From: Yuukianura sp. NJ FZ-2021
Lineage: Eukaryota
Direction: 5' to 3'
Assembly (NCBI GenBank): GCA_046563655.1
Contig: CM102290.1
Span: forward strand, 15,252,001 to 15,274,664
DNA: 22,664 nucleotides
Both the position numbers and the translations under genes were made by a program. Positions 5,865 through 22,664 of the stretch are shown here, one piece after another. A model generated the notes under the pieces. That model was not told the origin of the DNA and did not search any database. It was given only the letters and a program-made list of their open reading frames with translations. The stretch's first letter is position 1. Each line of letters opens with the position of its first letter.

Positions 5865-5945
5865 CTCACTCCAGCACTCCAACCTGGAACTCCCCAAACA
5901 TTTCCATGGAGACTGTATCTGTTGCCTTGGATTCTAAACATTCCT

Positions 5946-5951
5946 TTTATT
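5946..5951 (-). promoter_or_regulatory. Candidate polyadenylation signal AATAAA for the zinc transporter
   Basis: TTTATT on the + strand, about 115 nt past the transporter stop codon. Confidence 0.5.
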
Positions 5952-6017
5952 TGTTACGGAATTCAAATATTCAAAATATGCATGTGTAATTCCTCCAATG
6001 AAAATGGTTAATTTTAA

Positions 6018-6023
6018 ATTAAA
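6018..6023 (+). promoter_or_regulatory. Candidate polyadenylation signal ATTAAA for PI3K
   Basis: ATTAAA about 155 nt after the PI3K stop, followed by GT-rich sequence. Confidence 0.4.
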
Positions 6024-6065
6024 AAGTGGTACTTTTCCTTGGGCTGTGTTTGGGAGTGGTAGAAT

Positions 6066-7629
6066 TTAAATCATGGGTTGGAGTTCTGCAGCATGACCCA
6101 CCTCTGGCTTTGACCTCACTTTGAGGAGGGGAATGTCTCCCTTGGACCCACTTCCCTCTTGGTCATTGACTTCTGCCTCTGTGCAACACTGCATCGTCTC
6201 ACAGTCCCCCTCGCACGGAAGGAAGCACTTCGGACGGCCCACGGACCCTCCAGGGCTACTCAACTGAAACAAAGAGTAATGTTGAACACATTGTTTAATC
6301 CAACTTTTGAATCCACTCAAGTACCTCCACAAATTCTGGCTGGAGAGTGATGTGTGAAATTCCATTGGAGTGCAGAAAGTCCACCACGTTGTACTCCACT
6401 CCCAAGTAGTTGAGGGTCCTGTACACCACATGCGCAGAAGCAACGATCTTCTGCGGAGTCAACTGCCAAATGTGAAAGTCATGAATGTCCAAGATCTCCT
6501 CCTGGAACTTGTGTCTCAACTCCTGCAGCAGCAACTCCAAGTTGATTTGGTTAGGGATTGTGAGGAGCAGAATATGACCAGCATCTCGACCTGCACTTAA
6601 AAATTACAACTTAGGAAGATAGGAATGGTTAGATACAATGGTTCCTTACCAAGGTTGTATGACAAGACAGACAGAATCACAACAGCACCAATTGTGGCCC
6701 CTGGATCAATGTACCTCATCACCACAATCTCTCCCTCACTCTCCGATCTTTCACTAACGTAGTAAAGGACACCCGCCACAACAACCACCAACACAGAACC
6801 TGTAATCCCACACACAGTTAAAAACCATCTAACATTGTATCTTTGAAACACTTTTTAAGTTTTTACCAAAAATGTCTCTGAAGATGGCAGTGAGGCCTTG
6901 ACGTCGGCGACTCTTCATTCCCTCCTTGACGTAGGCCTGCACAGACGCAGAAATCACAAAGTCATCTCCAACTTGGTGCTGGTGATGGGAATCCAGGAAG
7001 CTGCTCTGATGAAACGTGTAACCTTACAAAAATCACACAAAGTAACATGAAGTTAGGCTTGAAAAGTAAGTTGGGGTTACCTCCGACCATGAAGAAGGCA
7101 ATGGAGTTGACGAGGAGCCCAGCAGCACCAACGACTCCGACGACAGCGGAGTGATGCATGGAGTCATGATGGTCCACGTGAATGATGGTCTAAAAGAGTG
7201 AAAATTGAGTTGAGTGAGTGGTAAGTTGAATGAAGGACTCAAGGTACCTGAAGAGCTTCCACGGTGACTGAGAAGGCCAAAGCGGCGAGGAAGCACGTAC
7301 TAGCGACGATTCCACAGACATGGATTCTCGTCCATCCAAAAGTATTTTGCCAACTGGGCCCCTTCTGACAGAGCTAAGAGAGTAAAAAAAGGAGTTTAGT
7401 TGCGTCTCAAATGAGTAGTTGAGTTGCTTACATTGACGGTGACTATGCAAGTGAGGAGCGAGAGGACGTTGTAGAGCATGTGGTAGGCATCAATCTGGAG
7501 GATGAGAGAGTGCGTCAAGTGAGCAGTGACGAGTTGAATCACAAAGTAAGTCAAAGTGAGGGTGAGCAGAACGTAGAAGCGGAAGAGGGAAACGTGAGTC
7601 AGAATGTCCTTGGTGCCTGAAGGCCCCAT
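6066..7629 (-). CDS. ZnT77C: CDF/SLC30 zinc transporter, ZnT1/ZnT10 clade (insect ZnT77C-like), 400 aa, intact
   Basis: Exons 7629-7432, 7373-7248, 7189-7081, 7022-6867, 6799-6650, 6590-6325, 6263-6066 total 1203 nt with matching phases. Motifs: THSLILQIDAYHML, NTFGWTRIHV, GGYTFHQSSFL, YIDP, IHDFHIWQL, HITLQPE and a Cys-rich tail (C..PC..C..CC). An in-frame TGA lies upstream of ATG 7629. The family call is firm; the ZnT77C orthology is from memory. Confidence 0.9.
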
Positions 7630-8118
7630 TCTCCACAACTTCTCAAGTTCAACTGAGTCCACAATTGAATTTGGTCAAGGGATCCTAACTAAATGAAGAG
7701 ATGAATCATGTCCGTCCACCGTTCCGTACACTTCTTACTTGGATAGAAAAGTGTTGATGTGGAAGTAAGAAAGAAGGACTTATCTCGTCCATTGTTTTCA
7801 TGTTGAGAGTCAAAAGTTAATCCTGTTCCTCAGCTAATCTGTCGCTGTGGTTGAGTGTTAAGTGGATCCACTTGAATGAACACTACACGAAACAACTTAT
7901 GTTGACACCTTATCTGGCCAAACAAAGTGAAATGGTGGAAGTAGAGTGGATTAAGGACTTGGGCTCTTCTAGACACACCAAAAACATAATCCCACACGAC
8001 AAGGAAACGTCCAATTCTTCCACTTTATCGCCTAGCAGAGACTCAATTAATCGGTTTGACTAATTAGTCGATTGAAAGGTTTGGACTGTGGGAAGGGAGA
8101 AATGAAAGAACAGCTCTT

Positions 8119-8250
8119 AGCCTAAAAAACTTACAGTTAACTATGAGTTTCTCCTTATGGGAGAAGTTAGGTTATAAAAAATTACAATTTTTTATACACT
8201 AGGTTTGGCCATTTGGAGAAAGTCATAGTTAACTATACATTCACACCTAT
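8119..8250. mobile_element. 132-bp hairpin element flanked by a 9-bp direct repeat (possible TSD)
   Basis: ACAGCTCTT at 8110-8118 and 8251-8259. Subterminal inverted repeat 8135-8154 / 8215-8234 (19/20 match). Central perfect palindrome TATAAAAAATT-ac-AATTTTTTATA at 8173-8196. Confidence 0.55.
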
Positions 8251-8263
8251 ACAGCTCTTCTGG

Positions 8264-8438
8264 ACTTCTTATTTTGTTTTGATTTTGACTTTGGTTTTTT
8301 GAAAAGAGTTGGCGCACTTTGTGTCAAGTTCAAAGTTGAGCAATGTCTAATGCTGAGATAACCATGTCAGCAGCTTCTGTTGTTTTCCGAGGATTAGCTC
8401 TTGAGACGAAAAGACAAAACCAAAAGTTGTCGGAGCAG
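8264..8438 (-). repeat. Copy 1 of a dispersed non-coding module (left arm of inverted repeat 8264-9692)
   Basis: Its reverse complement aligns with 9495-9692, e.g. ACTTCTTATTTTGTTTTGATTTTGACTTT.GTTTTTTGAAAAGAGTT..CGCACTTTGT.TCAAGT...TGTCAGCAGCTTC...CCGAGGATTAGC...GACAAAACCAAAAGTTGTC. Confidence 0.9.
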
Positions 8439-9407
8439 GACTCTTTGTGTTTTGGTTTTCTGTCCACAGAATGACTGCGCATGTTTCATCCTCGCTTGAG
8501 AATACAAAAATATTCAGGGCCGTGTGCTACTAAGTTACGGCCCATCTTCCGAATAATTATTATAATAAAGAATAATTATTATTAGTAACATCATTCACTG
8601 TTAAGAACTTTAAATTACAATTAAACAGAATGAAATAATTACTACTAGTGTATTTCATGTCCCTTAACCACAAAAAAAAAACTAATTTCAACACAACTTC
8701 CATTTTATTCGTTTCAGCTATGGTTAAAGTGGCTTTTCTAATTTAAACCAAAACTACAAAGAAAGTTTGTGAAAATAATGCAAAGACAGTAAAATTTGAA
8801 ATGATGTTTAACTTTTAATTTGTTTGAACAAGCGAAAATGGATTTCGAATAATTTTTATTTGTGGAATTGAAAAAAAAACGGAAACAGAAAAAAAGTGGA
8901 GTGAACTCCTGCACACTCTTCCTGTTCTCAGCAACTTTCTATGCTTTTCACACACAAAAAATTCACCTAACTTTTTCTGGCGAAGTGAAGTGATGACAGA
9001 AAATCATCATGAATGACTTTTTACACAAGAAAATTCTGACTACTGTCGTTTTTCTTTCTTCACAAGAAACTTTCATACAAAAAGTACAAAGAAAGTTAGA
9101 GAAATCTAAGGATGTAGGAAAAGTGAAATTGGAAAGCTTGTTGTACTTTTATTTAGATTTGAGAAGCGAAACTGCATGGAGAAAGTTTGAGTTTGGTGTA
9201 CAAAAACAAAAATAAAATTGAAGTTGAGTCAAGTCCAATAGATTCGGCCGGTCCTCCGGAACTTTCTCTGTTTTTCTCCATAAAATGTTTGATTTTTGGG
9301 GGGTTTGGAGTTGGGATGGTCCCCACATGCATTTTTTCCGTTGCCACCTCACGCCCTTCACCACCCCCAACTCCAAAAGAGTAACACTGCTACTCCTTTC
9401 GGCTTCA

Positions 9408-9415
9408 TATAAAAG
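9408..9415 (+). promoter_or_regulatory. TATA-box-like TATAAAAG upstream of PPWD1
   Basis: Consensus match about 360 bp upstream of ATG 9769. The motif alone is weak evidence. Confidence 0.25.
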
Positions 9416-9494
9416 GGAAGCTCCACAAATTCTCTACTGCTCTCAACTATTTATGTGAATCTCGTCCCGGGTGCGGACCGAGAGAGCGAACAAG

Positions 9495-9692
9495 CTGCTT
9501 TGACAACTTTTGGTTTTGTCATTTCAACCTGACTTGGATTGCGCAAGTCAGGTTGAAGGCTAATCCTCGGAGAGCAACCGAAGCTGCTGACAGCTTATCT
9601 TAGCATTAGACACTGCGGAACTTTACACTTGAGACAAAGTGCGGGAACTCTTTTCAAAAAACAAAAGTCAAAATCAAAACAAAATAAGAAGT
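9495..9692 (+). repeat. Copy 2 of the dispersed module (right arm of the inverted repeat), with an extra 14-bp-stem hairpin
   Basis: Inverted copy of 8264-8438. Ends 76 bp before the PPWD1 ATG. Contains the E2F-like GCGGGAA. Confidence 0.9.
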
Positions 9693-9768
9693 TTACTTCA
9701 ATTTAAAGTTAAGCTGATTGTTTAAAGTTAATCATTGAATAATTTCTCAATTAAGTTTCAGTTTTTAG

Positions 9769-12368
9769 ATGTCTGACAAGGAAGCGAGTAGTGAGGAGAA
9801 CCCGAAGAGACAGCGGTTAGAAGACGACCAGTCCGAAGCAACAATCACCCCAGAAAGTCAAGTGACTGATGAAAATGTGAGTAAAGGTCAAGAGTCTTCA
9901 GACGATGAGTTCATTGGACCTCAGCCAGTCACGGAACAGGATCCACACAAATCGGAGAAAGTCAAGCGGAAGAAAGGTGAGTCAAACTACGATAACATTT
10001 CAAAACAAATCCTAAGTGTCCGATTTTATTTTCAGTTCTTCCCTATGACAAGCTATACCTCGATAACCTTCCAGATGCAGACTACTACGAAAAGAGTTTT
10101 ATGCATCGAGAGCCATTGTCTCACATAGCAGTTACAAAGCAAGTCAAATACATCTCAATCCCAAGTCATTCAAGGTTCAATTTTTATTAATAATTTGTTA
10201 TTTTTTTCAGAACTGACTTCCTCATTACTGCCAGTTGTGAAGTTGTGATGGTCACATCAAGTTCTGGAAAAAACAGGAATTGGGCATACAGTTTGTCAAA
10301 CACTTTTGACCTCACTTAGGAAATATCCAAGACATTTCAGTCAACTCTACCGGGACTCAGCCTCAATTTCCAATGACAAAAGCCTCAAGGTCTTCGATGT
10401 TGTCAACTTCGGTAAGTTTCGCTTTTACAACTTAGATTTCATGAAATTACTAGCATGCTACTAATGAAAGGTTTGTTTTGTAGATACTATGATCAACACG
10501 TTCAAATTGGACTTTGTACCGCAAGCATGCGAATGGATCCATCGTTCTGGAGATGCAGTTGTGCTCTGGCAGTGTATGATTTAAAGTCATTGATTTTATT
10601 ACAAATTACCAGCTAATTCAATTAATACTAACCTAATTGATTAATTTCAAATGTTTCTAACCCTGTTCTAGGTCTCATGCTGACTCCAATCTGATTTACA
10701 TTTTTGACGGACACGGAGGGAAGGAACCTCTGCGCATTCAGGATAAAATCCATAGTCTACCAGTGACTATCATCAAGTACGCTCCAAAGTTAGACGCCGT
10801 CAACTCCGTGGATGTCCAGGGAATGGTTGAGTACTGGACATGATCCAAGACACAATTTGCATTCCCAGCCAACCTTCACTTTCGTTCCAAACTGGACACG
10901 GACTTGTTTGAATTTGTCTCCAACAAGTTGAAAGTCTGTTGCTTGGCAATTTCACCAAACGAAAAGTACTTTGCTACTCTCACTTCTGATCGAAGAGTAA
11001 GTATCTAAATCCCTATCTTAATTATCTTATCGTAGACTTATCCTAATTATCTTGTTATCTTAGACTTAACTTTGTGATTATCTCTCCAGGTCTGTCTGTT
11101 CCACCTTCTGACTGGGAAGTTAGTTCGAGTATTTGACGAAGACTTGCCGCAGATTCTTGAGCATCAAGCCAAGGCTCAGCTCATCCCGACCATGGAATTC
11201 GGAAGACGCATGGCTGTGGAACGGGATTTAGAAAACAACAACACTTTAAAAGAGACGAACATGCTGTTTGCCGACAGTTCCAACTTCCTCCTCTACCCCA
11301 CCGTCCTTGGCATCAAAGTGGTCAACATCGTCACCAACAAGTTGGAACGTCTCATTGGGAACTCAGAAAACCTTCGATTCCTGCGTCTCGCTCTCTTTCA
11401 AGGGAAACCCAAGAAGAACCTTGGAGTTCCCACACTGGAGCTAAAATCCAGCACTGGGCTCTGTTCTTCCAGACCCAACTCTTTTCTGCACAGCCTACAA
11501 GAAGAATCGCTTCTATCTCTTCTCGAGATGGAAGCATGAGTGAACAAGGATGTGTTCAACGAAAAACCAACCAAAGAAGATATCATCTCTGCCACAGACA
11601 CAGCTGGTAAGATAACATGAAGTGGACAAAGCATTTATCTCAGCTTATCCTAACTTTATCTCAGGTTTATCCTAACCTTATCTTTCTTTTTTGAAGCTAC
11701 TAAGAAGATTTTCGAGACTGCTGTGATGCACACGACGAAGGGTGACATTCATATCAAGCTGTTCGTGAAGGAGTGTCCCAAATCAGCTGAGAATTTTTGT
11801 GTGCATAGGTTAGACCTAACCTGCATGCGAAGAATGGGTACTACAATGGGAACATCTTCGATCACGTCATCAACTCTAATTCATGATCCAAACAGGAGAC
11901 CCTTCAGGTTCTAACTAAAAACTAAAACTAAAGTTACTGAAACGGAATTTGACCTGTGACCTTGAACTTTTGTTTGTCGTAGGAATTGGAACTGGTGGTG
12001 GAGAGAGTATTTGGGGAGGGAGTTCGAAGACGAGTTTCATCCAAGTTTAAGACATGATCGACCGTACACGCTGAGCATGGCCAATGCCGGTCCAAACACA
12101 AATGGATCCCAGTTCTTCATCAACCTCACACCCACCGTAAAGTTATACACATCCACTTTTTTCAATTTTTCCATATTAAACAAGCGAAGGTGACTGATTG
12201 GTTGTTTATTTTTGGCTTAGCTTTGGCTGGACAACAAGCACACTATCTTTGGCAGAGTGACACGCGGAATGGAGACTGTCCAGTCCATCTCCCTCGTAAG
12301 ACTAACTCCAAGACAGACAAGCCCTGCGAGGCGACGACGTCTCCATCATCAACATCTCTCTCAAATAA
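9769..12368 (+). pseudogene. PPWD1: Peptidylprolyl isomerase domain and WD-repeat protein 1, full-length unprocessed pseudogene
   Basis: Exons about 9769-9976, 10036-10138, 10211-10411, 10484-10573, 10672-10996, 11090-11606, 11697-11907, 11983-12136, 12221-12368. Motifs: [80 protein letters not shown]. In-frame TGA at 10307 and 10841. Frameshifts near 10241, 10358, 10560, 11445, 11530, 11807, 11877, 12018, 12297, 12331. Cyclophilin FHRVI reads FDHVI (catalytic Arg lost). Confidence 0.93.
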
Positions 12369-12587
12369 AATGTCCAGTATTTTACACAAACTTTATTTCT
12401 GAACCTCCTCATCAAAAAACGAAACACAAGAGATATGAATTAATTAATCGTTGTAGAATGGAGTGAGGTACAAAAAGTAACTAAATTAGCGTTGACGCTA
12501 AAAAGTTGATGAGTTTTGAGACACTTCCGACACCGATTTAGGAATATGAAGACTATGCGCAGTCCATTGCGCAGAATGTATAGATTA

Positions 12588-12828
12588 TTAAGCTTTAGTC
12601 ATCGCTCCTGGAAGAAAAGAGAGGTCAAGGTCAGCATTTACCAAATGAAGCTTGCAGCTAGTTGGAAATTGTTAATTAGGTTAAGTTTGACCTAACCAAG
12701 TGTGTTGGTTGTGTTAAACTTGAGCCTAAAAAGCTTACGGTGGGGGATTACTTCGTTGATACTCAGGCAGGGAGGTTGTGTAGTCCCGCTTCGGCTGGAA
12801 CAAGTCAGCTTCGTTTAGTACCATGTAT
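12588..12828 (-). other. Candidate last two exons of an unidentified gene (5' part missing)
   Basis: AG-[12828-12739]-GTAAGC, 81-bp intron, TAG-[12657-12588, TAA]. Phases match, giving YMVLNEADLFQPKRDYTTSLPEYQRSNPPPCKLHLVNADLDLSFLPGAMTKA*. Minus-strand AATAAA at 12397-12392. Product not recognised. Confidence 0.4.
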
Positions 12829-12961
12829 CTGCATTTCCAATTTCAATTAATTATTAGTGATTTTCATCACTTTTACCATAAAAAATTAAATGCCACTCTT
12901 TTCGTTGTGTAGAATCAAGTTTACTATGAAAAAATTGACTGTTTAGATTTTTCACTTCACC

Positions 12962-13419
12962 GATTTTTTCACTAAAGATATGTTCACACTCTGTCAAAAA
13001 TTTGTCATTTGAGATTTTTTTGCACTAAAGTCGTATTTACACTGTGAAACAAAAATTTGAAATTTGAGATTTTATGCACTAAAGCCGTATTTCCACTGTG
13101 AAACAAAAATTTGAAATTTGAGATTTTATGCACTAAAGCCGTATTTACACTGTGAAACAAAAATTTGAAATTTGAGATTTTTTTTCCACTAAAGGCATCT
13201 TCAAACAGTTACAAAAACAAAGTTGAGATTTTTTTTCACTAAAGGCATCGTCATACAGTTGCAAAAACAAGGTTGAGATTTTTTTCACTAAAGGCATCTT
13301 CATACAGTCACAAAAACAAAGTTGAGATTTTTTTTCACTAAAGGCATCTTCATACAGTTACAAAAACAAAGTTGAGATTTTTTCACTAAAAGCATCTACA
13401 TACAGTGACAAAAGAAGTT
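12962..13419. repeat. Minisatellite array A, about 9 units of 49-55 bp in two subtypes
   Basis: GAGAT anchor at 13011, 13066, 13120, 13174 (54-55 bp spacing), then 13225, 13275, 13324, 13374 (about 50 bp; GAGATTTTTTTTCACTAAAGGCATCTTCATACAGTTACAAAAACAAAGTT). Confidence 0.92.
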
Positions 13420-13697
13420 AGTCTTCAGGACTTGGACCACAAAATGGAGGAACTTGGCCAAAAACTTACTCACAGGCCTGGTGACTATGTGCCAATTGTA
13501 AGGTTTAACATTTATTTGGAAATACGTCGAAAACGATTGGAAATCGATACATTTTTGTTTGTTTTCAGTTTGAAGCAGCAGCAACGGAAGTTGCAGAGGA
13601 AGTCACTTATCCACCACCCTTCGGAAAAGAAATTGCCAACCCAATCCAGGTCATGCTATCGTCCTCCGCAAATTCATCCCAGTTTTGCTATGTCAAG
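13414..13697 (+). pseudogene. MCM5: Two-exon N-terminal fragment of DNA replication licensing factor MCM5
   Basis: Exons 13414-13497 and 13569-13697 (GT-AG intron; donor GTAAGA follows) give EVSLQDLDHKMEELGQKLTHRPGDYVPI/FEAAATEVAEEVTYPPPFGKEIANPIQVMLSSSANSSQFCYVK. This matches the MCM5 pattern EV..EDL...P...E.AA.EVA.EVT.PRP.GEE....IQVML. No start codon and no ATPase domain. Confidence 0.8.
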
Positions 13698-13735
13698 GTA
13701 AGAAAAATTGCAATTAGTTCAATTGCTTCCAGATT

Positions 13736-15508
13736 AACTTATGATGCCATCATACTAATGGACATTGGAATTTTTGAATTTCTTAACTTATGATGTCTTC
13801 ATACTAATGGAAATTAGAATTTTTGAATTTCTAAACTTATGATGTCTTCATACAAAATGGAAATTAGAATTTTTGAATTTCTTAACTTATGATGTCTTCA
13901 TACAAAATGGAAATTAGAATTTTTGAATTTCTTAACTTATGATGTATTCATACTAAATGGAAATTAGAATTTTTGAATTTCTTAACTTATGATGTTTTCA
14001 TACTAAATGGAAATTAGAATTTTTGAATTTCTTAACTTATGATGTCTTCATACTAAATGGAAATTAGAATTTTTGAATTTCTTAACTTATGATGTCTTCA
14101 TACACATCAAAATTGGAATTTTTGAATTTCTCAAGTTATGATGTCTTCATACAGATGAAAATTGGAATTTTTGAATTTCTCAAGTTGTGATGTCTTCATA
14201 CACATCAAAATTGGAATTTTTTAATTTCTCAACTTATGATGTCTTCATACACATCAAAATTGGAATTTTTTAATTTCTCAACTTATGATGTCTTCATACA
14301 CATCAAAATTGGAATTTTTTAATTTCTCAACTTATGATGTCTTCATACACATCAAAATTGGAATTTTTAATTTCTCAACTTATGATGTCTTCATACACAT
14401 CAAAATTGGAAATTTTTTAATTTCTCAACTTATGATGTCTTCATACACATCAAAATTGGAAATTTTTTAATTTCTCAACTTATGATGTCTTCATACACAT
14501 CAAAATTGGAATTTTTTAATTTCTCAACTTATGATGTCTTCATACACATCAAAATTGGAATTTTTTAATTTCTCAACTTATGATGTCTTCAAACAGACAT
14601 TGGAATTTTTAATTTCTCAACTTATGATGTCTTCATACAGATAGTGGAATTTTTGAATTTCTCAAGTTATGATGTCTTCATACAGATGAAAATTGGAATT
14701 TTTTAATTTCTCAACTTATGATGTCTTCATACACATCAAAATTGAAATTTTTTAATTTCTCAACTTAATGATGTCTTCATACACATCAAGATTGGAATTT
14801 TTTAATATCTCAACTTATGATGTCTTCATACACATCAAGATTGGAATTTTTTAATATCTCAACTTATGATGTCTTCATACACATCAAGATTGGAATTTTT
14901 TAATATCTCAACTTATGATGTCTTCATACATCAAAATTGGAATTTTTTAATTTATCAACTTATGATGTCTTCACAGTGATGAAAATTGGAATTTTTTAAT
15001 TTATCAACTTATGATGTCTTCACAGTGATGAAAATTGGAATTTTTTAATTTATCAACTTATGATGTCTTCACAGTGATGAAAATTGGAATTTTTTAATTT
15101 CTCAACTTATGATGTCTTCACAGTGATGAAAATTGGAATTTTTTAATTTCTCAACTTATGATGTCTTCACAGTGATGAAAATTGGAATTTTTTAATTTCT
15201 CAACTTATGATGTCTTCACAGTGATGAAAATTGGAATTTTTTAATTTCTCAACTTATGATGTCTTCACAGTGATGAAAATTGGAATTTTTTAATTTCTCA
15301 ACTTATGATGTCTTCACAGTGATGAAAATTGGAAGTTTTTTAATTTCTCAACTTATGATGTCTTCACAGTGATGAAAATTGGAATTTTTTAATTTCTCAA
15401 CTTATGATGTCTTCACAGTGATGAAAATTGGAATTTTTTAATTTCTCAACTTATGATGTCTTCACAGTGATGAAAATTGGAAGTTCTGAATTTCTCAACT
15501 TATGATGT
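13736..15508. repeat. Minisatellite array B, about 36 copies of a ~49-bp unit
   Basis: Unit AACTTATGATGTCTTCATACACATCAAAATTGGAATTTTTTAATTTCTC, head-to-tail, no unique spacers. Confidence 0.97.
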
Positions 15509-15514
15509 TAGTTG

Positions 15515-16380
15515 CGACTCCAAACCCCTCAGTTTCAACTTAAAATGGAAGTCCATATAAGCCCTTCATTTCAACTCAAAATGGAAGTCTGAATTGGACC
15601 TAAAATGGGACTTCGAAATGGAAGCGACTCCAAACCCCTCAGTTTTAATTCAAAATTTAAGTCCAAGTAAGACTTAGCCCTTCATTTCAACGTAAAATGA
15701 AAGTCAAAATGGGACTTCAAAATGGACGTCCAAAAGGGACTTCAAAATGGAAGTCGAAATGGGACTCCTAAAGGGGTTAGTTTCAACTCAAAATAGATTT
15801 CAAAATGGGACTCCAAAATGGACGTCCAATTAGGACTCCCAAAGGTGTTACTTTCAACTCAATACGGGATTCCAAAATGGAAGTCAAAATAAGACTCCAA
15901 AATGGAATTCAAAATAAGACTCCAAAATGGAACTCGAAATGGGACTCAGAAAGCTATTTCAACTCAAAATGGAAGTCCAATTGGGACTCCCAAATGGAAG
16001 TCCAAATGGGACTCCCAAATGGAAGTCCAAATGGGACTCCAAAATGGACGTCCAATTAGGACTCCCAAAGGGTTTATTTTTAACTCAAAATCGGATTCCA
16101 AAATGGAAGTCAAAATGGGACTCCAAAATGGATGTCAAAATGGGACTCCAAAATGGATGTCAAAATGGGACTCCCAAAGCACTGTCCCAATTTAAACTCC
16201 AAATGGAATCCTAAAGTCGACTCCCAATGCCCTCTCAATTTTATTCCCAAGTGGAAGTAGAAATTGGAGTCCGAAAGCACTGTCCCAATTTCAAACAAAA
16301 TGAAGTCCAAATGGGACTTCAAAACGGAAGTCCAAATGGGACTCCAAACGTCTCAGTTTCAACTTAAAATGGAGGTCGAA
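15515..16380. repeat. Degenerate array C of 10-12-bp subunits (AAATGGGACTCC / AAATGGAAGTCC) with larger duplicated blocks
   Basis: Alternating AAATGGAAGTC and AAATGGGACTC, punctuated by TTTCAACTCAAAAT. GCGACTCCAAACCCCTCAGTTT occurs at about 15515 and 15624. Confidence 0.88.
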
Positions 16381-16405
16381 ATAGGTGAAAATAAATTTTT
16401 TAATT

Positions 16406-16615
16406 TTTAAATTTTTGGAAAAAAGTTTTTCTTTTAAGGTAATTACATACTGTAATGGAAGAATTAAATTTTTGAAAAAGTTTCTCTCTTAAGGTGATTA
16501 CATACTCTGAGAATTATATTTTTGAAAAAGATTCCTTTTAAGGTGGTTACATACTGTGAGAATAAAATTTTTGAAAATGTTTCTTTCTTAAGGTGACTAC
16601 ATTCTCTGAGTATTA
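16406..16615. repeat. Minisatellite array D, 4 units of about 50 bp
   Basis: AAGGT anchor at 16436, 16491, 16540, 16590. Unit approximately TTAAGGTGATTACATACTCTGAGAATTATATTTTTGAAAAAGATTCCTTT. Confidence 0.85.
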
Positions 16616-16655
16616 AACCTACGTTGCACCTATGTCTTAAACCTATGTCTACGTT

Positions 16656-17007
16656 TCACCAGGAAGGTCGATGGACTGGACGTGCAAATTTCGACTCAGA
16701 ATACTGCGCACATCTTGAGTGAATGTCAAGGCGTCTAATACTTTAAGAAGGATGAGGAGGGTGGTAGCATCTGTGAACCAGGATTTGACCAGCATTGCAA
16801 TGGCTACAGGCACAAACCACTAGTTAGTTAAATAGTCATTTGGACTGAATCAGCTGTTGAGGTTAAGTTAGCCGGGTAAGAGCGATAAGCTCCTGGTGAG
16901 TTGTCCAGAATAAATATGGAGTTGAGACCATTGGAAATGATGGACAGATCCTTCGAGGAGGAACCCAAGTGAAGAGTGCAGTGTTGTCGCTAGTATCTCG
17001 TCTCCAG
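16656..17007 (-). pseudogene. CTDNEP1: 3' fragment of CTD nuclear envelope phosphatase 1 (dullard)
   Basis: About 17007-16872: [41 protein letters not shown]. 16803-16656: ..[30 protein letters not shown](V)[15 protein letters not shown] and DVRS.LSRNLH are CTDNEP1 hallmarks. In-frame TAG at 16992-16990, damaged splice donor, 5-bp duplication at 16672-16681. The DxDxT catalytic motif is absent. Confidence 0.87.
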
Positions 17008-19407
17008 GCTGGAGAATCTCCAGATTTAGGTTTCGAATCGGTTTCAGTGTCATTGCCTTTGCTTCCTTTTTTTACTTTCTTCACCGCCAGCATTCTCAGA
17101 CTGTTCGCTGTTCTCTCCGTTGTTAGGCCCCGTTTGTGCTGGAATCTCCACTCCCTGTAAAATGAAATGTTTCCAATCTAATTCAAATGCAAAATCCCGC
17201 TTATTTCAAAATTAACCTGAAAATAACTTGCTAAAAGCTGATCCCAATTTAGACAGGGTATCCTCTTCTGGAGCAGCAACTGTTTCCAGTGTGGCGTTCT
17301 TCTTTAAAACAGATTCTACTAGTAGAGTGAGACTGATGATTCCATTTCCGTCCAAATTGTAATGTGCTTTGACGCCTTTCACTTCAATACCATCGCCAAT
17401 ATTTTTAACACCTTTCAGATTCACTTTGGTAATGTTAGGAGTCTCGGTGGCACTAAAAACAACAAAAATGGAAATCAGCTGATACTTAAATTAACAAATT
17501 AAAAGTAAATCTTACTTGGCTTGGTGCGCTGGAACTTGCAACTCGGCGTAGCTGACGTAGAAACTGAAATCGTCTACATGCTTGTTGAATGTTCAGATCT
17601 TCTTCTGTGGATAAGGATTCATGTAAGAAAAGAAAGTTCGGCGAACAATCTTGACTGGCCGGGCGGCTCCATCTTCTCCCTCCAGTTCCCGCTCAAAATC
17701 GACCTGCAAAAGAAACATTTCATTATTTGATGACTAATTGAGCGATTTGTTTTAAAAACTTACCAAAATGGGAAAAAGAACAACCTCTTTGGTCAAAAAC
17801 TTTTTGACTTTGAATCCAGAGCAGAGATCAGCTGCTTTGTAAACGCTAAACGGCGCCCATCACTGCAGCCTCGTCCGTGTTAAGACTCTTTTCTAATTCT
17901 CGTTTCAAAACTTCAGTCAGTTTTTCCTGGACTTTTGGAATACGCGTTCCAGCTCCAACTAAAATGACTTGGTCAATGAGGTCCATTGTAACTCCAGCGG
18001 CTGTTAACGCTTGTTCAACTGGATAGTTGACACGTTCGACCAGATCTTCACATAAACTCTCAAACTCGGCACGGGTAACGGAAGTTTTGAAGTCTTGTTC
18101 ATCCAAAAGACCTTCAACCTGTAATCAAAAAGTCAGCACATTTCAAACATCTTTTTTAGAATTTAGTTCTTTCGAAGTGTTTTCATATTTTCGTGGTTGA
18201 ATCATTGACTTTAGCCTGTATGTAAAAGGAACCGAAGCGCATTCTATTACTCTTTCAGTTTGAACGGAATAACAAGTACGGAAAAAGTTGCGGTTCGAAA
18301 ATACTTCAGAAGTAGTAAAAAAAAATGAAGTAAAAACGTAGAAAAAAATTTTTGTTACCTGAGCGTAGTGATCAGCGTTAGCACTCAAAACGTTTTTGAG
18401 TCGACCGGCTTCCTTGAACAATTTGGCCAGGGCACGGTGGTTAGTAAAAACATCAGTTTCGGTCTTCTTCAGGTCATTGAAGGCCTTGCCCAGAAAATCC
18501 CTCAGCCGAAGTTGCATTTCCAGACCACCCAGTGTATGATCGTATCTGAAACCAAGTGAATCAGCTGATCATCTTATTTCTGAAAACATGATGTTCGCAG
18601 TGTAATTTCAAATTCTAGACTTACCCAACACCAAGAATTGTCAACTGTGGATTAGTTTCAACTACTCCCTTCTCCTTAGTTTTCGTCATCTGATAGCTGA
18701 TTACAGTAGCCACTGTACTGGATGCTCCCATGTCATACAAGAGAAGGTGCTGAGGAGTCTCGTTGAAGTCTTTTCAACAAAAAATACAATACTTCAAAGC
18801 ACCTAACAACATTCAAGTGTATTAAAAACGACATTCCGACGAATAAAACTATCAAAATTCAAATATTTTGTGAGAGATTACTGACCGTGGTTGCGTTTAT
18901 GAGGTGAAGAACATTGATATCCGCCAATTCGGATGCGTGCAGAACTGCTCGTCTTTCGGCTTGGTTGAAATAAGGTGGAACGGTGATGAGTGCTTCCTTG
19001 ACCGGTTGACTAGCAAACTCCTGAGCATAGTCAGACGCTTGGCTTAGAATCATTCCAACTCCAAGGAGTTCCTCAGATGAATAAAATAATAAAAAGGTTC
19101 ACTACAAACAGATAAATCAGTAATATCATCAATCAGCTGTTATCGATTTAGGTTACGGTACCTGTCATGTTGAAAAAGAACTGTCCCACGGTCAGGATCA
19201 GGAACTAAGTTGTAGTAAGGAAATCTCTTTTTGATAAAGCTCTACAATTGGATTATCAATCTTCTTTACCAAGAGATCCAAGAAGTAAACGTAAGCATTG
19301 GATGGGAAACGAACTACTACGTTCAGTGCATCGTCTCCAATGAGCCGCTCATTGTCACGGAACGATACGGTAACTGGTGTTTTCCGCTTTGACTTGGGCA
19401 CTCCAGG
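17008..19407 (-). pseudogene. HYOU1: Hypoxia up-regulated protein 1 (GRP170, ER Hsp70-family), truncated at both ends
   Basis: Exons about 19407-19162, 19101-18886, 18802-18625, 18545-18359, 18118-17764, 17703-17516, 17452-17217, 17154-17008. Motifs: [62 protein letters not shown]. Stops at 18776-18774 and 17595-17593. Frameshifts near 19230, 19085, 18886, 17846, 17632. Signal-peptide exon and C-terminal part are missing. Confidence 0.92.
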
Positions 19408-19422
19408 CTATAATAAAACGTA

Positions 19423-20726
19423 TTAAGAGTCCAGCATCCTCCTCCCCTTGTCCACTTCATCCGCAACTCCTGGTTTCAAATTCACAACTTAAATGGGATT
19501 TAGAAACTTCAATTAAGATCTCTTACCCGATTTTTGGATTGTGTTTCCTGGGATTCGTTACTGTAGTGCATTTGGGAAAGAGTTTCTTCACATTCTCTCT
19601 AGTCACATCTGCATGAATGTTCGTCACGTAGAGACAAAATGGGTCAATGTGCTCAGGGTTATTCGTCACACGCGTGTCACTGTCCAGTTTCTCCTCCACC
19701 TTAGAATAAAAACAAAGTTAGATAACTATCAACCCAAGCAAGAGAATGAATGAAGATACTTGGAGGTTTTAGAATGAACTGGAAATGTTTACTTACGGTG
19801 ATATTTGAACCAGCGAATTTGACTTTCTTCAACGCCTCCACTCCCTTCTGGACGTCTGCGTCGTGCTTGAAGATGACGAGAAACTGTCTGGGTTCGACAG
19901 ATTTAGGAAAGACTGCAGTTTCGATGCCGCCATGCCACGCCTTCACAATTTGCTCTGTGATGGGAGGGTCATGCACTTTGATCAAGTACACATGACCACC
20001 ATGACCAGCTCCTGCTCCGCCTTCATTCCTCGCTCGCAGGCTCCAGCCGGTCTTGGATTAGAACCCAATTTCTAAACACAGTCACAAGTTTACCAATTGG
20101 GAAGAAAGGTAGTGGAGAAGCGTGGATTACTTACGTTAGTCAAGCGTTGGGATCGGCTCTTCTTCTGGGCTTTCTTGTGAATGTTCTTACTCTGCGCAGA
20201 AACTTTATTCAATCCTCCCTTGGCTTGATCTTTCTTCTGGAACTTGTGCTTTGGCTGTTGCGTGGCTGGAGCTTTCGGTGGCGAAGTGCCTTTCGTCACT
20301 TCCACCTTCTTTGCACCCACTGGTGGAGGAGCCACTTTCTTGTTCAAATTCTGAGGTTGAGTCTTCTGATTGTCATGCTTCTGTTCCTGTTTCGGAGGAT
20401 CTCCACCTACAGCCAAAAAACAGTTTAGGAAAGTTGATTCCAGATATCTGAAAGCAATTAACTGGTTACCTTTGCCTTGTGGCTGCTTGGGACTTTGTTG
20501 ACAACCGAAGGACTTGTTTCCTCCGAATTTATTGGGACGCTGACCTTGAGGTCCTCCAGCTCCAGGGGATTTACCTTGTTGGTTTTTCGGAAATTTGGAT
20601 GGGTATTGTTTCCCCCAACGGACTGCAAACACAAAACACAATCTTCAAGTCATAATTAAGTCAAGACTTAAGTAAGGAAGGAAAAATAGGAAAACTTACC
20701 TTTCGTTTCTCGGCTGCCATGATCAT
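19423..20726 (-). pseudogene. RRM-domain RNA-binding protein resembling painting of fourth (POF)-like proteins; disrupted and 3'-truncated
   Basis: Exons about 20726-20700, 20622-20470, 20406-20135, 20071-19797, 19699-19527. K/Q/G-rich N-terminus, then YLIKVHDPPITEQIVKAWHGGIETAVFPKSVEPRQFLVIF..LKKVKFAGSNITVEEK..PEHIDPFCLYVTNIHADVTRENVKKLFP (two RRMs). Phases require frameshifts in exons 2 and 4. The frame collapses after 19527. The RRM call is firm; the POF similarity is from recollection of insect sequences. Confidence 0.7.
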
Positions 20727-20913
20727 GTTCCCTTCAACTATTCAGTACTTCCTACCAGGAAACAACTTGTGGATTAAGCAATGAAGAGACGGTGACCTTT
20801 AAGTTGGACGACGTCGAGGTCAACGTAATGACAACTGGATGAGCGACTACTGCTGACAAGGAGGAATTCAAAGTGGAATCTGAGAACAGGGACTTCCACT
20901 TCACAGAGGAGTA

Positions 20914-21100
20914 ACAAATAACTCCACTGGTCCTTATTTATAACTTTTTCTTTTCTGAGTGCGGACCACGCCCGTGTAACAAAAATTCCGCCATAAAGTC
21001 ACTATCGGAGGCTAATACTCGGAAAAGAGTAGAAACTGCAGATAGAGTTATCTGATTCTTAGACACTCCTATGTTTTGTCTTGAGACAAAGTGCGGGAAC
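20914..21100 (+). repeat. Copy 3 (diverged) of the dispersed module, in a divergent promoter region
   Basis: CTTGAGACAAAGTGCGGGAAC (21080-21100) is identical to 9628-9648. Colinear upstream blocks GGCTAAT.CTCGGA, TTATCT, TTAGACACT, GTGCGGACC and TATTTAT are shared with 9425-9648. Confidence 0.8.
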
Positions 21101-21222
21101 CTAATTTAAATAGTAGTTTAAGTTGTTAGATTTAACAAATCTACAATTCACAATTCGATTACAAGAAAACAATTACTAAATTAATTAGTAATCAAGAATA
21201 ATTATCTGTTGCTTTGCTTCAG

Positions 21223-21934
21223 TTTGAATAACAACTTGTGCAACTGTTGTTATTCACTTGATCTGGACCTGGAGGATTAGTGGAGGAAGACTCGTCTCCA
21301 ATCAACTAAACGGTAACAATGTAACTTAAAAGGGAATCAGTTTTTACATGTGTTTTTATATCCTTAGGTCAGTTGGTTGTTAGCGATTAGTGACTCGGAC
21401 GACACTGACTTGGAGAACTTACAACTGGCCCTCAGCAGTCTCCTCAAGAACAACTTCCCACTTCAGACGAGTGAGTGCTGTGAGTGTTTCCCTGTCCACT
21501 TAGTACTTTTCAATCATCATAGTGTTTCGTTTGTTTTGTATTAGGTCTTTTACCGTTCAACCTCCAACCTCATCTCAATTGAACCGGTGGAGAACTCCAA
21601 AAGAAGAATGAGGATGATGGACCCACAGTAGAGGAGGATGACAACGGACAGAGTGACGACAGGAGCAGTGGAAGCGAATATGCGGTTGTCGGTAATTGTC
21701 ACAACCAATGAAGCTAAAGGAACTGGACGTTGTTATAAATTTGTCGCTGACTGTTGTGTTTTTTTTGAAGAGGGACTTTCTGTTTCATGTGGTGATGTGG
21801 ACCAAGTGATTGAGGAAGTTGTTGTGTCCGATGGTGAGAACATGAACAAGTCCAGAGGAAGAAGAGGCTGAAGATGCCGCCGTCAGTTAGCCATGCTTCT
21901 TTCGACGAGATTCACTTAGGAGTGCATTAGGAGT
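21223..21934 (+). pseudogene. Disrupted 5' exons of an unidentified acidic, low-complexity protein gene
   Basis: Canonical short introns 21313-21367, 21471-21544, 21692-21770. Reconstructed ..LNGQLVVSDSDDTDLENLQLALSSLLKNNFPLQTSLLPFNLQPHLN*TGGELQKKNEDDGPTVEEDDNG.. with a 7-bp duplication (21380-21393) and TGA at 21580. Confidence 0.5.
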
Positions 21935-21940
21935 AACCTA

Positions 21941-22347
21941 ATGTCAGACCGAGAAGATTTGCTCAGTCGTCGATTCACGCTAAATGACAACACGAGTATC
22001 AACATTGACTATTCCATCCAGCATCACAGTTCTCTCCAGGTTAGCTCATAACATCATAAACTACAAATCCCGCAGTGCCAAATAAAATGTCACTTTACCA
22101 GAACGCCCACCGTGGAATCGATGACATGCTGTCGCTGGGATACCAAATACTTGGGAATTTGCGTGATCAGGAGTCCATCCTGAAGCAAACGAAGACAAGG
22201 ATTCTAAACTTTACAAACACTCTGGGACTATCTAACACCGTGATGCAGTTCATAGAACGCCGTGCATACCAAGACAAGTTTGTTCTCTACGGTGAGATGC
22301 TTCTCACACTAACCATCATGTTTTTCATTTACATGTACTTTCTCTAG
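21941..22347 (+). pseudogene. GOSR2: C-terminal half of Golgi SNAP receptor complex member 2 (membrin); N-terminal domain missing
   Basis: Exons 21941-22039 and 22102-22347: DREDLLSRRFTLNDNTSINIDYSIQHHSSLQ/NAHRGIDDML..ILGNLRDQ..LGLSNTVMQFIERRAYQDKFVLYGEMLLTLTIMFFIYMYFL*. This is a Qb-SNARE motif plus transmembrane tail. Confidence 0.85.
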
Positions 22348-22555
22348 ACCTTTCTCCCAACTTCATCTGCGATTCATGTCCCTAACTTCTAAGCTTATTA
22401 AATCATATCGTCCGTTTTCCTAAAATACGAGAGGATCTACCGGAGAGAAGAAGTGATTAGAATTAGTTGGATATTTCGTTTTAATCAAAGATACCTCGCC
22501 ATGCCATCCACTGAAGTTTAATGGAAACTAGTGTTTAATTAGTAATTGAAGTACA

Positions 22556-22664
22556 CTATGGTCCAGCGGGGGCATGAGGGGCAGAGGTTCTTATGATGTC
22601 AGAGTCACGAGGATCCGTGATGGAGAGGGTGCAGACTCGGAAGTACTTTCCACAGGCAGTCCCT
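22556..22664 (-). CDS. RPL30: 60S ribosomal protein L30, C-terminal end (partial; possibly pseudogenic)
   Basis: [35 protein letters not shown] matches the eL30 C-terminus GTACGKY.RVCTL.I.DPGDSDIIR. Runs off the window edge. Confidence 0.85.

What the first reader, a model, noticed from the sequence alone, without database searches (positions are those of the whole stretch)
9769..22664. Compacted 'graveyard' of housekeeping genes next to intact genes
Seen: in 13 kb, essentially every recognisable gene (PPWD1, MCM5, CTDNEP1, HYOU1, POF-like, GOSR2, two unidentified genes, possibly RPL30) is broken or truncated but keeps its introns, in both orientations. PI3K and ZnT next door have no lesion in 7.6 kb. 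Known: PPWD1, MCM5, HYOU1, GOSR2 and RPL30 are conserved, normally indispensable genes, so intact copies should exist elsewhere. Inference: this is a large duplicated segment decaying and shrinking by deletion. Possible origins are a segmental duplicate, a degenerating non-recombining haplotype or sex/B chromosome, or serial gene capture by a Helitron/Pack-MULE-type element.
Basis: partly seen in the sequence, partly recalled or inferred. Interest (0 to 1): 0.8.

Follow-up and report, generated by a model that had tools for sequence, protein, structure and literature searches.

The report
Repeated mosaic of broken housekeeping genes
Next to an apparently working kinase gene, this springtail-like genome carries a satellite-rich patchwork of dead, intron-bearing pieces of at least six housekeeping genes, and public DNA reads show the patchwork in several diverged versions, one part of it amplified head to tail.

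Summary
PPWD1 (9769-12365, +) is full length but has 2 in-frame stops and about 8 frameshifts. Five other genes survive only as pieces:
- HYOU1 (19429-17017, -): profile positions 54-579 of 958 plus a linker exon, with 2 stops and 2 frameshifts.
- An RRM-domain gene (20726-19526, -): cut inside its RRM, with 1 frameshift.
- CTDNEP1: last ~115 codons, with 1 stop.
- GOSR2: positions 97-213 of 213.
- MCM5: about 40 residues, lying between satellite arrays.

All keep introns. The eL30 last exon runs off the window. The "two unidentified genes" could not be confirmed. PI3K-C2 looks intact. The ZnT-like gene has no frame lesion but lacks three of four metal-site residues.

New here: contigs of 4 public DNA runs from 2 studies show this is not one decaying duplicate. 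It exists in many diverged versions (<90% to >99% identical). One version lacks almost exactly the HYOU1 piece. In the independent study, block 17415-20839 carries a head-to-tail joint at about 19 times the depth of the neighbouring relics. Copies decay independently; for example, the window's HYOU1 stop at 18776 reads CGA (Arg) in most others.

Best reading: a non-functional mosaic of duplicated gene pieces in repeat-rich DNA, reshaped by deletion and tandem amplification. Origin and chromosomal location are unresolved, and no intact parent gene was located.

The parts
1..5864 (+). PI3K class II (C2-domain) gene, cut by the window start. Apparently intact neighbour, used as a control.
   Evidence: Pfam RBD, PI3K_C2, PIK, kinase, PX and C2 in order. 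Kinase exon scores 159.6 bits, with DRH and DFG motifs present in the ORF listed. PDB 7bi4 match for 2690-2992.
6295..7629 (-). ZnT1/ZnT10-like cation-efflux gene. Open frames, but the metal-site residues are changed.
   Evidence: Pfam Cation_efflux positions 4-54 and 52-91, and ZT_dimer. PDB SLC30A1 E=1.4e-4 and SLC30A10 E=0.052; the alignments show HxxxN in TM2 and loss of the TM5 His and Asp.
8264..9692 (.). 1.4-kb element with about 175-bp imperfect terminal inverted repeats. It lies at the border between the intact genes and the relics and contains no gene fragment.
   Evidence: Inverted repeats I1, I3 and I4, 90-91% complementary; sequence read.
9769..12368 (+). PPWD1 relic. Full length with introns; 2 in-frame TGA and about 8 frameshifts.
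   Evidence: tblastn to P0122, P0124 and P0125; HMM positions 19-611 of 623 with frame changes; DNA read; Pfam WD40 and cyclophilin pieces.
12995..13413 (.). 54-bp and 50-bp satellite arrays.
   Evidence: Tandem Repeats Finder; families D8 and D9.
13569..13691 (+). MCM5 relic, about 41 residues from the N-terminal domain (MCM5 residues 99-139 of 734).
   Evidence: PDB MCM5 chains, E=1.3e-4 to 8.7e-4, 5 distinct sequences. The flanking ORF 13390-13698 has no hit.
13736..16617 (.). Satellites: 49-bp unit x36 (13736-15508), a 12/25/50-bp family (15514-16318) and a 50-bp unit (16407-16617). GC falls to 25-33%.
16652..17001 (-). CTDNEP1 relic. Last ~115 codons in two exons, with the natural stop; TAG at 16992-16990 replaces a Tyr. 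The catalytic N-terminal half is absent.
   Evidence: Pfam NIF positions 87-129 of 160; PDB 8ujl E=1.8e-9; coordinates.
17017..19429 (-). HYOU1/GRP170 relic. Profile positions 54-579 of 958 plus a linker exon, 8 introns kept; 2 TGA, 2 frameshifts, 1 in-frame loss. The N-terminal ~53 and C-terminal ~340 residues are absent.
   Evidence: A parent-like contig diverges at 17017, and other contigs skip 17003-19429.
19430..20726 (-). Relic of a lineage-restricted RRM-domain gene. ATG at 20726, profile up to position 286 of 440, ends at 19526 inside the RRM, followed by about 96 nt of retained intron. One G is missing at about 20003.
   Evidence: 18 relatives in 1.84 billion representatives. tblastn and HMM; DNA.
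17415..20839 (.). 3,425-bp block (HYOU1 and RRM relics plus 113 nt upstream of the RRM ATG) that is joined head to tail and over-represented in the independent run X3.
   Evidence: Joint 20839->17415 'goes back 3425', depth 1048, with 226 nt on the shorter side. Contigs over 17744-20839 have depth 1038-1048, against 55.8-61.6 over 21346-22664.
20840..21934 (.).
   Evidence: No Pfam hit at E up to 5. Atlas scores 0.76-0.77, below any useful level. No GOSR2 N-terminus found.
21935..22347 (+). GOSR2 (membrin) relic. C-terminal 117 residues in two exons with SNARE motif, membrane anchor and stop; the N-terminal 96 residues are absent.
   Evidence: Pfam V-SNARE_C E=4.3e-15; HMM positions 97-133 and 131-213 of 213; tblastn.
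22560..22664 (-). Last exon of ribosomal protein eL30, convergent with GOSR2, running off the window. It has one Gly-to-Arg change in a conserved motif.
   Evidence: PDB eL30, E=1.6e-11, 25 of 26 identical; Pfam L7Ae/L30e positions 71-94 of 95.

Best explanation
The stretch 9.8-22.7 kb is a non-functional mosaic of DNA-level copies of pieces of at least six ordinary housekeeping genes: PPWD1, MCM5, CTDNEP1, HYOU1, an RRM-domain gene and GOSR2, and perhaps eL30. It lies in satellite-rich DNA of a springtail-like hexapod.

Shown:
- The pieces keep their introns.
- They are disabled by stops, frameshifts and truncations.
- Neighbouring pieces abut directly, at 17002-17017 and at 19429/19430.
- The mosaic exists in several diverged and structurally different versions in public reads.
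- One version lacks the HYOU1 piece.
- In one source a 3.4-kb sub-block is joined head to tail and is about 19 times deeper than the adjoining relics.
- Different copies carry different disabling or non-conservative changes.

Inferred. Gene-bearing DNA was duplicated into, or within, a repeat-rich and probably recombination-poor region and lost function. It has since been remodelled by short-homology or end-joining deletions and insertions, by satellite expansion, and by unequal exchange or replication slippage that amplifies sub-blocks. It does nothing for the cell. It behaves like a complex repeat, a duplicon mosaic or macrosatellite. Intact working copies of these genes should lie elsewhere in the genome.
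For: Lesions and truncations are set out in the observation check.

Not a sequencing artefact:
- Two stops are CGA-to-TGA changes at conserved Arg codons.
- Several indels are 5-20 nt long.
- The PI3K gene next door shows no lesion.
- Contigs with 0 differences span the CTDNEP1|HYOU1 junction (X1 record 2, 16978-17347).
- Another spans the HYOU1|RRM junction together with the extra A at about 19225 (X2 record 12, 19191-19472).

Multiple versions. Contigs laid, by identity class 99+/95-99/90-95/<90:
- X1: 167 contigs (40/59/42/26).
- X2: 245 contigs (66/82/67/30).
- X3: 55 contigs (16/18/12/9).
- X4: 640 contigs (296/197/89/58).
Up to 9 distinct contigs cover one place (21737).

Structural variants. 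A skip of 17003-19429 occurs in 4 of 4 runs. A skip of 17936-18438 occurs in 3 of 4 runs.

Amplification. In X3, the depth bins over 17428-20861 read 942-1572, against 49-84 over 20862-22664. The head-to-tail joint has depth 1048.

Independent decay (on 35 of the 40 places that one search listed, out of 456 places in all):
- 27 places are coding: 9 synonymous and 18 non-synonymous, the latter falling in 17 codons.
- In 10 codons the other copies keep the orthologue residue and the window does not. This includes the stop at 18776.
- In 4-5 codons the reverse holds, for example Arg to Cys and Met to Arg in the 1038-deep X3 contig.
- In 2 codons (18039, 18082) neither allele matches the orthologues.

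The window's exons are about as similar to orthologues as the orthologues are to each other, which points to recent rather than ancient decay.
Against: - No intact parent copy was identified. One lower-identity contig continues HYOU1-like beyond 17017, but its sequence is not visible to me.
- The single-copy depth of the runs is unknown. Absolute copy number therefore cannot be given, and in sample S1 (X1, X2, X4) the depths could fit only a few copies, or pooled individuals.
- S1 may be the sample the window was assembled from.
- The tandem joint is seen only in X3, not in the window or in S1.
- Only 40 of 456 differing places and 12 of 105 indels were shown, so the polarity count rests on a selected subset.
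- I did not lay reads on 1-16619. Whether PPWD1, MCM5, PI3K and ZnT share the multi-copy state is unknown.
- All three minus-strand relics have the same orientation and complementary truncations (5' part, middle part, 3' part). That also fits simple deletion from one ancestral gene row.
Confidence: 0.6

Rival explanations
1. One reading: one colinear, gene-dense chromosomal segment was duplicated once. The spare copy is simply decaying and shrinking by deletions that bridge neighbouring genes. The other versions seen in reads are later deletion derivatives and alleles.
For: - RRM (5' part), HYOU1 (middle) and CTDNEP1 (3' part) all lie on the minus strand, each junction removing the 3' end of one gene and the 5' end of the next. 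That is what two deletions in a head-to-tail gene row would leave.
- GOSR2 and eL30 are convergent with about 210 nt between their stops. PI3K and ZnT are similarly close in the intact part.
- The skip of 17003-19429 is flanked by the 5-nt repeat TCCAG, a usual mark of short-homology deletion.
Against: - Both ends of the 2,427-nt skip fall within 14 nt of the two ends of the HYOU1 relic. That is unlikely for a random later deletion and suggests the piece is a module.
- Lesion density differs between relics: about 10 in 1.9 kb of PPWD1 coding sequence, against 1 in about 1.3 kb of RRM plus GOSR2. This is only marginally significant by my own rough count.
- The head-to-tail joint and the 19-fold depth step in X3 need amplification, not only loss.
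- In Allacma fusca a fused gene model puts Pus10, not the RRM gene, directly upstream of HYOU1. This is weak evidence, because that species is a distant relative.
Confidence: 0.2
2. Serial capture of gene fragments by a rolling-circle (Helitron-type) or Pack-MULE-type DNA transposon that then multiplied, carrying the same mosaic to many places.
For: - Pieces of unrelated genes with introns are juxtaposed in both orientations, and the same mosaic is present in many diverged copies.
- The HYOU1 piece is present or absent as a unit.
- Read on the minus strand, the amplified block begins with TC and ends with CTGA, which fits the recalled Helitron end rule TC...CTRR.
Against: - No Rep/helicase or transposase domain occurs in any ORF of 30 residues or more scanned in 9.2-22.7 kb. 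219 of 238 such ORFs were scanned; 19 ORFs inside the 49-bp satellite or the 12/25-bp repeat stretch were left out.
- No terminal inverted repeats flank any relic. The only long inverted pair (8264/9692) encloses no gene piece.
- I saw no GC-rich hairpin before the putative 3' end, which lies inside a HYOU1 exon.
- PPWD1 is a whole gene from ATG to stop, unusually large for such captures.
- A head-to-tail joint fits unequal exchange equally well.
Confidence: 0.1
3. Assembly or sequencing artefact: the genes are intact and the lesions are consensus errors or mis-joins.
For: Four of the frameshifts are single-base changes in homopolymer runs: about 19225, 20003, 12020 and 12300.
Against: - In-frame stops arise by substitution at conserved codons.
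- Indels of 5, 7 and 20 nt are present.
- Hundreds of codons are missing.
- Exact contigs span both junctions and the 19225 site.
- The independent study X3 carries the same relic sequences at 93-99% identity.
- No lesion was found in the PI3K gene of the same contig.
Confidence: 0.02

Closest known systems
Duplicon mosaics of pericentromeric and subtelomeric segmental duplications (best described in primates; recalled, no paper read here)
   Same: Intron-bearing fragments of unrelated genes are pasted side by side next to satellite DNA. They are present in several copies 90-99% alike, are non-functional, have junctions with short homology, and vary in copy number and structure between individuals.
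   Different: This is a compact arthropod genome, with fragments of 0.1-2.6 kb and introns of 50-230 nt. One sub-block behaves as a 3.4-kb tandem unit. The chromosomal position is unknown.
Gene-fragment amplification on B chromosomes and on degenerate sex-limited chromosomes (reviews such as PMC6211034 and PMC7919458 seen only as search listing and abstract; the rest recalled)
   Same: Pseudogenised, truncated copies of normal-chromosome genes accumulate together with satellites. Particular fragments, or chimeras of fragments, are amplified tens of times.
   Different: Nothing here shows that the region is supernumerary, sex-limited or germline-limited. An apparently intact PI3K gene lies 4 kb away on the same contig.
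Unprocessed (duplicated) pseudogenes left by segmental or whole-genome duplication (fractionation)
   Same: Introns are retained at ancestral positions, with stops, frameshifts and deletions, and the amino-acid sequence is still recognisable.
   Different: Fractionation leaves single decayed copies in a syntenic order. It does not leave a family of diverged mosaic copies with a tandemly amplified sub-block.
Helitron or Pack-MULE gene capture (recalled)
   Same: Chimeric arrays of exon-intron fragments from several genes, multiplied in the genome.
   Different: The defining ends, hairpin, terminal inverted repeats or transposase were not found here.

Membership tests
Unprocessed (DNA-level duplicated) pseudogene | Clear homology to a protein-coding gene family | tested here: met
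   HMM and tblastn hits, for example HYOU1 exon E=4e-53, PPWD1 exon E=3e-54 and GOSR2 E=1e-48; PDB and Pfam for CTDNEP1, MCM5 and eL30.
Unprocessed (DNA-level duplicated) pseudogene | Introns retained (not a retrocopy) | tested here: met
   There are 8 intron-sized gaps in HYOU1 and 9-10 in PPWD1. The PPWD1 intron after 11005 sits where read-through ORFs of relatives (P0123, P0158) show theirs.
Unprocessed (DNA-level duplicated) pseudogene | Disabling lesions in the reading frame | tested here: met
   Stops at 10307, 10841, 16992, 17595 and 18776; at least 11 frameshifts; truncations.
Unprocessed (DNA-level duplicated) pseudogene | An intact parent copy in the same genome | not testable with these tools
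   No whole genome is held. Only a hint is available: a lower-identity contig continues beyond the HYOU1 truncation point at 17017.
Tandem amplicon / macrosatellite | Head-to-tail junction between the end and the start of the unit | tested here: met
   X3 joint 20839->17415, depth 1048, 226 nt on the shorter side. It is not seen in X1, X2 or X4, nor in the window.
Tandem amplicon / macrosatellite | Unit over-represented relative to flanking sequence in the same run | tested here: met
   In X3, contigs have depth 1038-1048 inside the unit against 55.8-61.6 to the right and 41-99 over 17024-17427. In sample S1 there is no step within the 6 kb laid, so that sample is inconclusive.
Helitron-type capture | TC...CTRR ends with a 3' hairpin, and a Rep/helicase gene in autonomous members | tested here: not met
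   The end letters fit on the minus strand, but I saw no hairpin and the end lies inside a HYOU1 exon. No Rep/helicase Pfam hit was found. The ends were judged by eye on one copy only.
Pack-MULE / TIR-transposon capture | Terminal inverted repeats and a target-site duplication flanking the captured fragments | tested here: not met
   Of 13 inverted pairs, only 8264/9692 is long, and it encloses no gene piece; the rest are satellite matches.
B, sex-limited or germline-restricted chromosome DNA | Presence or depth that differs by individual, sex or tissue | not testable with these tools
   Run labels are coded, only contigs were available, and one laying call was allowed.

The most novel reading that the evidence does not exclude
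The mosaic belongs to a supernumerary, sex-limited or germline-limited chromosome, or to a comparable non-recombining block, of a springtail. There a chimeric unit has been amplified tens to about a hundred times as a 3.4-kb macrosatellite. The unit consists of the RRM gene's promoter and first 295 codons fused to HYOU1 exons. Copy number differs sharply between the two sequenced sources, as expected for a selfish or drive-associated amplicon.
Probability: 0.15. Interest if true: 0.65.

Novelty: new member of a known kind. Interest (0 to 1): 0.45.

Why it matters
The case is unusually legible. At least six housekeeping genes are caught at different stages of decay, with base-level junctions, next to satellites and an intact gene.

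It also warns annotators. Gene predictors will report fragments or chimeras here, and copy-number estimates for HYOU1, PPWD1 or GOSR2 in this species will be inflated.

If the amplified block marks a B, sex-limited or germline-limited chromosome, it would provide a ready probe for such a chromosome in springtails, where I know of none described at sequence level. That statement rests on recall plus one search listing, which showed nothing of this kind.

Tried and rejected
- Whole genome: none is held.
- Expression: no RNA holder was listed, so nothing can be said about it.
- MCM5 was first sought at 12513-12847. There were no MCM hits in PDB or Pfam. ORF 13390-13698 had none either. Only 13509-13790 gave MCM5.
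- GOSR2 N-terminus: no profile hit above 2.4 bits anywhere in the window. My by-eye candidates were dropped.
- ORFs 20777-20998 (-) and 21632-21868 (+): no Pfam hit. Atlas first hits scored 0.77 and 0.76, at chance level.
- ORF 547-1188 of PI3K: no PDB hit. It is probably a poorly conserved linker.
- Synteny via fused gene models: Allacma has Pus10+HYOU1, a weevil has HYOU1 plus an RRM/NOPS gene of another family, and others are unrelated. This was not informative.
- Transposon marks: the inverted-repeat scan and reading the block ends found nothing convincing.
- tRNA and Rfam at gathering score: nothing.
- Earlier findings of this scan: nothing for this genome, for look-alikes or for keywords.
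- Literature: two searches, listings and abstracts only. No paper on such a mosaic in springtails appeared, and no paper was read in full.
- A first HMM build with too many sequences timed out. It was repeated with 16 sequences per family.
- Joints with fewer than 30 nt on one side (18046->21260 and 20401->21260) were disregarded as unreliable.

Full report
**What the window is.** The window is eukaryotic nuclear DNA with short introns. The best named relatives of three different genes are springtails: Orchesella cincta, Allacma fusca and Orchesella dallaii, followed by other hexapods. I therefore call it springtail-like. No whole genome is held for it.

The layout, from six-frame ORFs, Pfam, PDB and orthologue comparisons, is:
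- a class II PI3K gene (+, 1-5864);
- a convergent ZnT-like gene (-, 7629-6295);
- a 1.4-kb element with about 175-bp inverted ends (8264-9692);

**Checking the observation.** I fetched orthologues for HYOU1, PPWD1, GOSR2 and the RRM-domain gene. I compared them with the window by tblastn. I also used HMMs built from 16, 16, 13 and 6 full-length orthologues, searched over every stop-to-stop frame of 8 residues or more.

PPWD1 (9769-12365) is present from ATG to stop, with intron-sized gaps in sensible places.
- It carries TGA at 10307-10309 where orthologues have Arg, and TGA at 10841-10843 where they have Gly.
- About eight frame changes have no room for an intron.
- Among these are a 20-nt palindromic insertion after 11806 and a 5-nt excess at about 12325.

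HYOU1 on the minus strand covers only profile positions 54-579 of 958, plus one exon of the acidic linker. Its lesions are:
- two TGA codons (18776-18774 at a conserved Arg; 17595-17593);
- an extra A at about 19225;
- a 7-nt insertion at about 17848;
- a 21-nt in-frame loss.

The remaining relics are these.
It has 18 relatives among 1.84 billion representatives; of 7 relatives scanned against Pfam, 6 show an RRM_1 match (one only marginally).
- The window keeps that gene's ATG (20726) and about 295 codons and stops inside the RRM. One G is missing at about 20003.
- CTDNEP1 is reduced to its last two exons, with a TAG where the solved human chain has Tyr.
- GOSR2 is reduced to positions 97-213.
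- MCM5 is reduced to about 41 residues (MCM5 residues 99-139), stranded between satellite arrays.
- The eL30 exon at the window's end is nearly perfect (25 of 26 residues) but cannot be judged, because the gene leaves the window.
- The 'two unidentified genes' have no detectable relatives.

**The neighbours.** PI3K-C2 shows all its domains in order, and the kinase motifs are intact. I found no lesion, though I had no orthologue for a full spliced alignment.

The ZnT-like gene has open exons, but its match to solved ZnT1 and ZnT10 is weak. The alignments show HxxxN instead of HxxxD in TM2 and neither the His nor the Asp in TM5.

**Is it an artefact?** Four frameshifts are one-base changes in homopolymers and could in principle be consensus errors. 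The rest cannot be explained that way:
- the in-frame stops, two of which are CGA-to-TGA changes;
- the indels of 5-20 nt;
- the missing hundreds of codons.

Contigs from public DNA runs with zero differences span both relic junctions and the 19225 site. An independent study carries the same relics at 93-99% identity.

**What the reads add.** Five DNA runs from two studies hold 0.33-0.56 of the sampled words of 16800-22664. I laid the contigs of four of them on 16620-22664 at 80% minimum likeness. I avoided the long satellite because the tool turns long repeats away. Four results matter.

1. The region exists in many versions.
   - 55-640 contigs per run were laid over 6 kb.
   - Identity ranges from above 99% to below 90%.
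   - Up to nine distinct contigs cover one place.
2. There are structural variants.
   - All four runs contain contigs that skip 17003-19429.
   - Three runs contain a skip of 17936-18438.
3. The independent run X3 shows amplification.
   - Contigs over 17744-20839 have depth 1038-1048.
   - Contigs over 21346-22664 have depth 56-62.
   - One 1452-nt contig runs from 20839 straight back to 17415.
   - That contig is a head-to-tail joint of a 3,425-bp block made of the HYOU1 and RRM relics.
4. The copies differ at coding sites in both directions. I examined 35 of the 40 listed places; 27 are coding, 18 of them non-synonymous, in 17 codons.
   - In 10 codons the other copies keep the residue found in orthologues and the window does not. 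This includes the window's stop at 18776, which is CGA in most copies.
   - In 4-5 codons the window keeps it and the other copy, including the very deep X3 contig, does not.
   - In 2 codons neither allele matches the orthologues.
   - This is what independent neutral decay of repeated copies looks like.

**Limits of the read evidence.**
- These are contigs, not reads.
- The single-copy depth is unknown, so I give ratios within a run rather than copy numbers.
- Sample S1 may be the assembly's own source and may be a pool.
- Only the best-supported 40 of 456 differing places were shown.
- I did not lay reads on the PPWD1, PI3K or ZnT part.

**How the pieces are joined.** The CTDNEP1|HYOU1 junction lies at 17002-17017. 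CTDNEP1 homology is secure from 17001 downward, and a lower-identity HYOU1-like contig diverges from the window at 17017. The HYOU1|RRM junction lies at 19429-19436; about 22 nt of a HYOU1 intron end and about 96 nt of an RRM intron are retained there.

The skipped segment 17003-19429 is bounded on both sides by TCCAG. It therefore removes almost exactly the HYOU1 piece. This can be read in two ways:
- a short-homology deletion;
- the empty state of a site into which a 2.4-kb HYOU1 fragment was pasted.

That both ends coincide with the relic's ends favours a modular, piecewise history over purely random deletion. Against that, the shared orientation and the complementary truncations of the three minus-strand relics favour deletion from an ancestral gene row. 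I cannot decide between these without the parent loci.

**Explanation and rivals.** I rank the readings as follows.
- Best reading (0.6): a non-functional mosaic of duplicated gene pieces in repeat-rich DNA. It decays neutrally and is remodelled by deletion, satellite growth and tandem amplification.
- Transposon capture (0.1): it lacks every defining mark I could test.
- Artefact (0.02).
- A B, sex-limited or germline-limited location: compatible with the best reading and untestable here. I carry it as the novel case (0.15).

**Comparison with known systems and verdict.** The closest known things are:
- primate-type duplicon mosaics near centromeres;
- gene-fragment amplification on B and degenerate sex chromosomes;
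- ordinary unprocessed pseudogenes.

The first two comparisons rest on recall and on listings or abstracts only. This is a new member of a known kind, in a group where I found no description of it in those two searches.

The finding is real and well documented at base level. Its interest is moderate unless the amplified block turns out to mark an unusual chromosome.

Noticed in passing
window 8264-9692: A 1.43-kb element with about 175-bp imperfect terminal inverted repeats (90-91% complementary). It sits 77 nt upstream of the PPWD1 ATG, exactly at the border between the intact genes and the relics. No coding hit lies inside it, and no clear target-site duplication was seen by eye.
   Followed up: partly
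window 8132-8237: A near-perfect hairpin: two 52-nt arms, 79% complementary, 2 nt apart, just left of the inverted-repeat element.
   Followed up: no
window 6295-7629 (-): The ZnT-like gene has open exons but reads HxxxN instead of HxxxD in TM2 and lacks the His and Asp of TM5 in the alignments to solved ZnT1 and ZnT10. It is either a decaying copy without frame lesions yet or a paralogue with another role.
   Followed up: partly
window 12995-15508: The 54-bp, 50-bp and 49-bp satellites share a core (…TCTTCATACA…) by eye. They look like variants of one family that has grown around the MCM5 relic.
   Followed up: no
window 15514-16318: A second satellite family is built from 12/25-nt units (CAAAATGG-type) with higher-order periods of 50, 71 and 110 nt. 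It gives long spurious ORFs in several frames.
   Followed up: no
window 11806-11826: The 20-nt insertion that breaks the PPWD1 cyclophilin exon is itself a small palindrome (AGGTTAG..CTAACCT).
   Followed up: no
window 19430-19492: Several contigs in two studies match the window on one side of 19436 or 19492 and then continue with unrelated sequence (loose ends). This short stretch therefore has more than two different partners among the copies.
   Followed up: no
P0158 (relative of PPWD1): A 279-residue read-through ORF of a PPWD1 gene piece in another organism is recorded on 46 contigs. This could mean a multi-copy PPWD1 fragment elsewhere, or simply many assemblies of one species.
   Followed up: no
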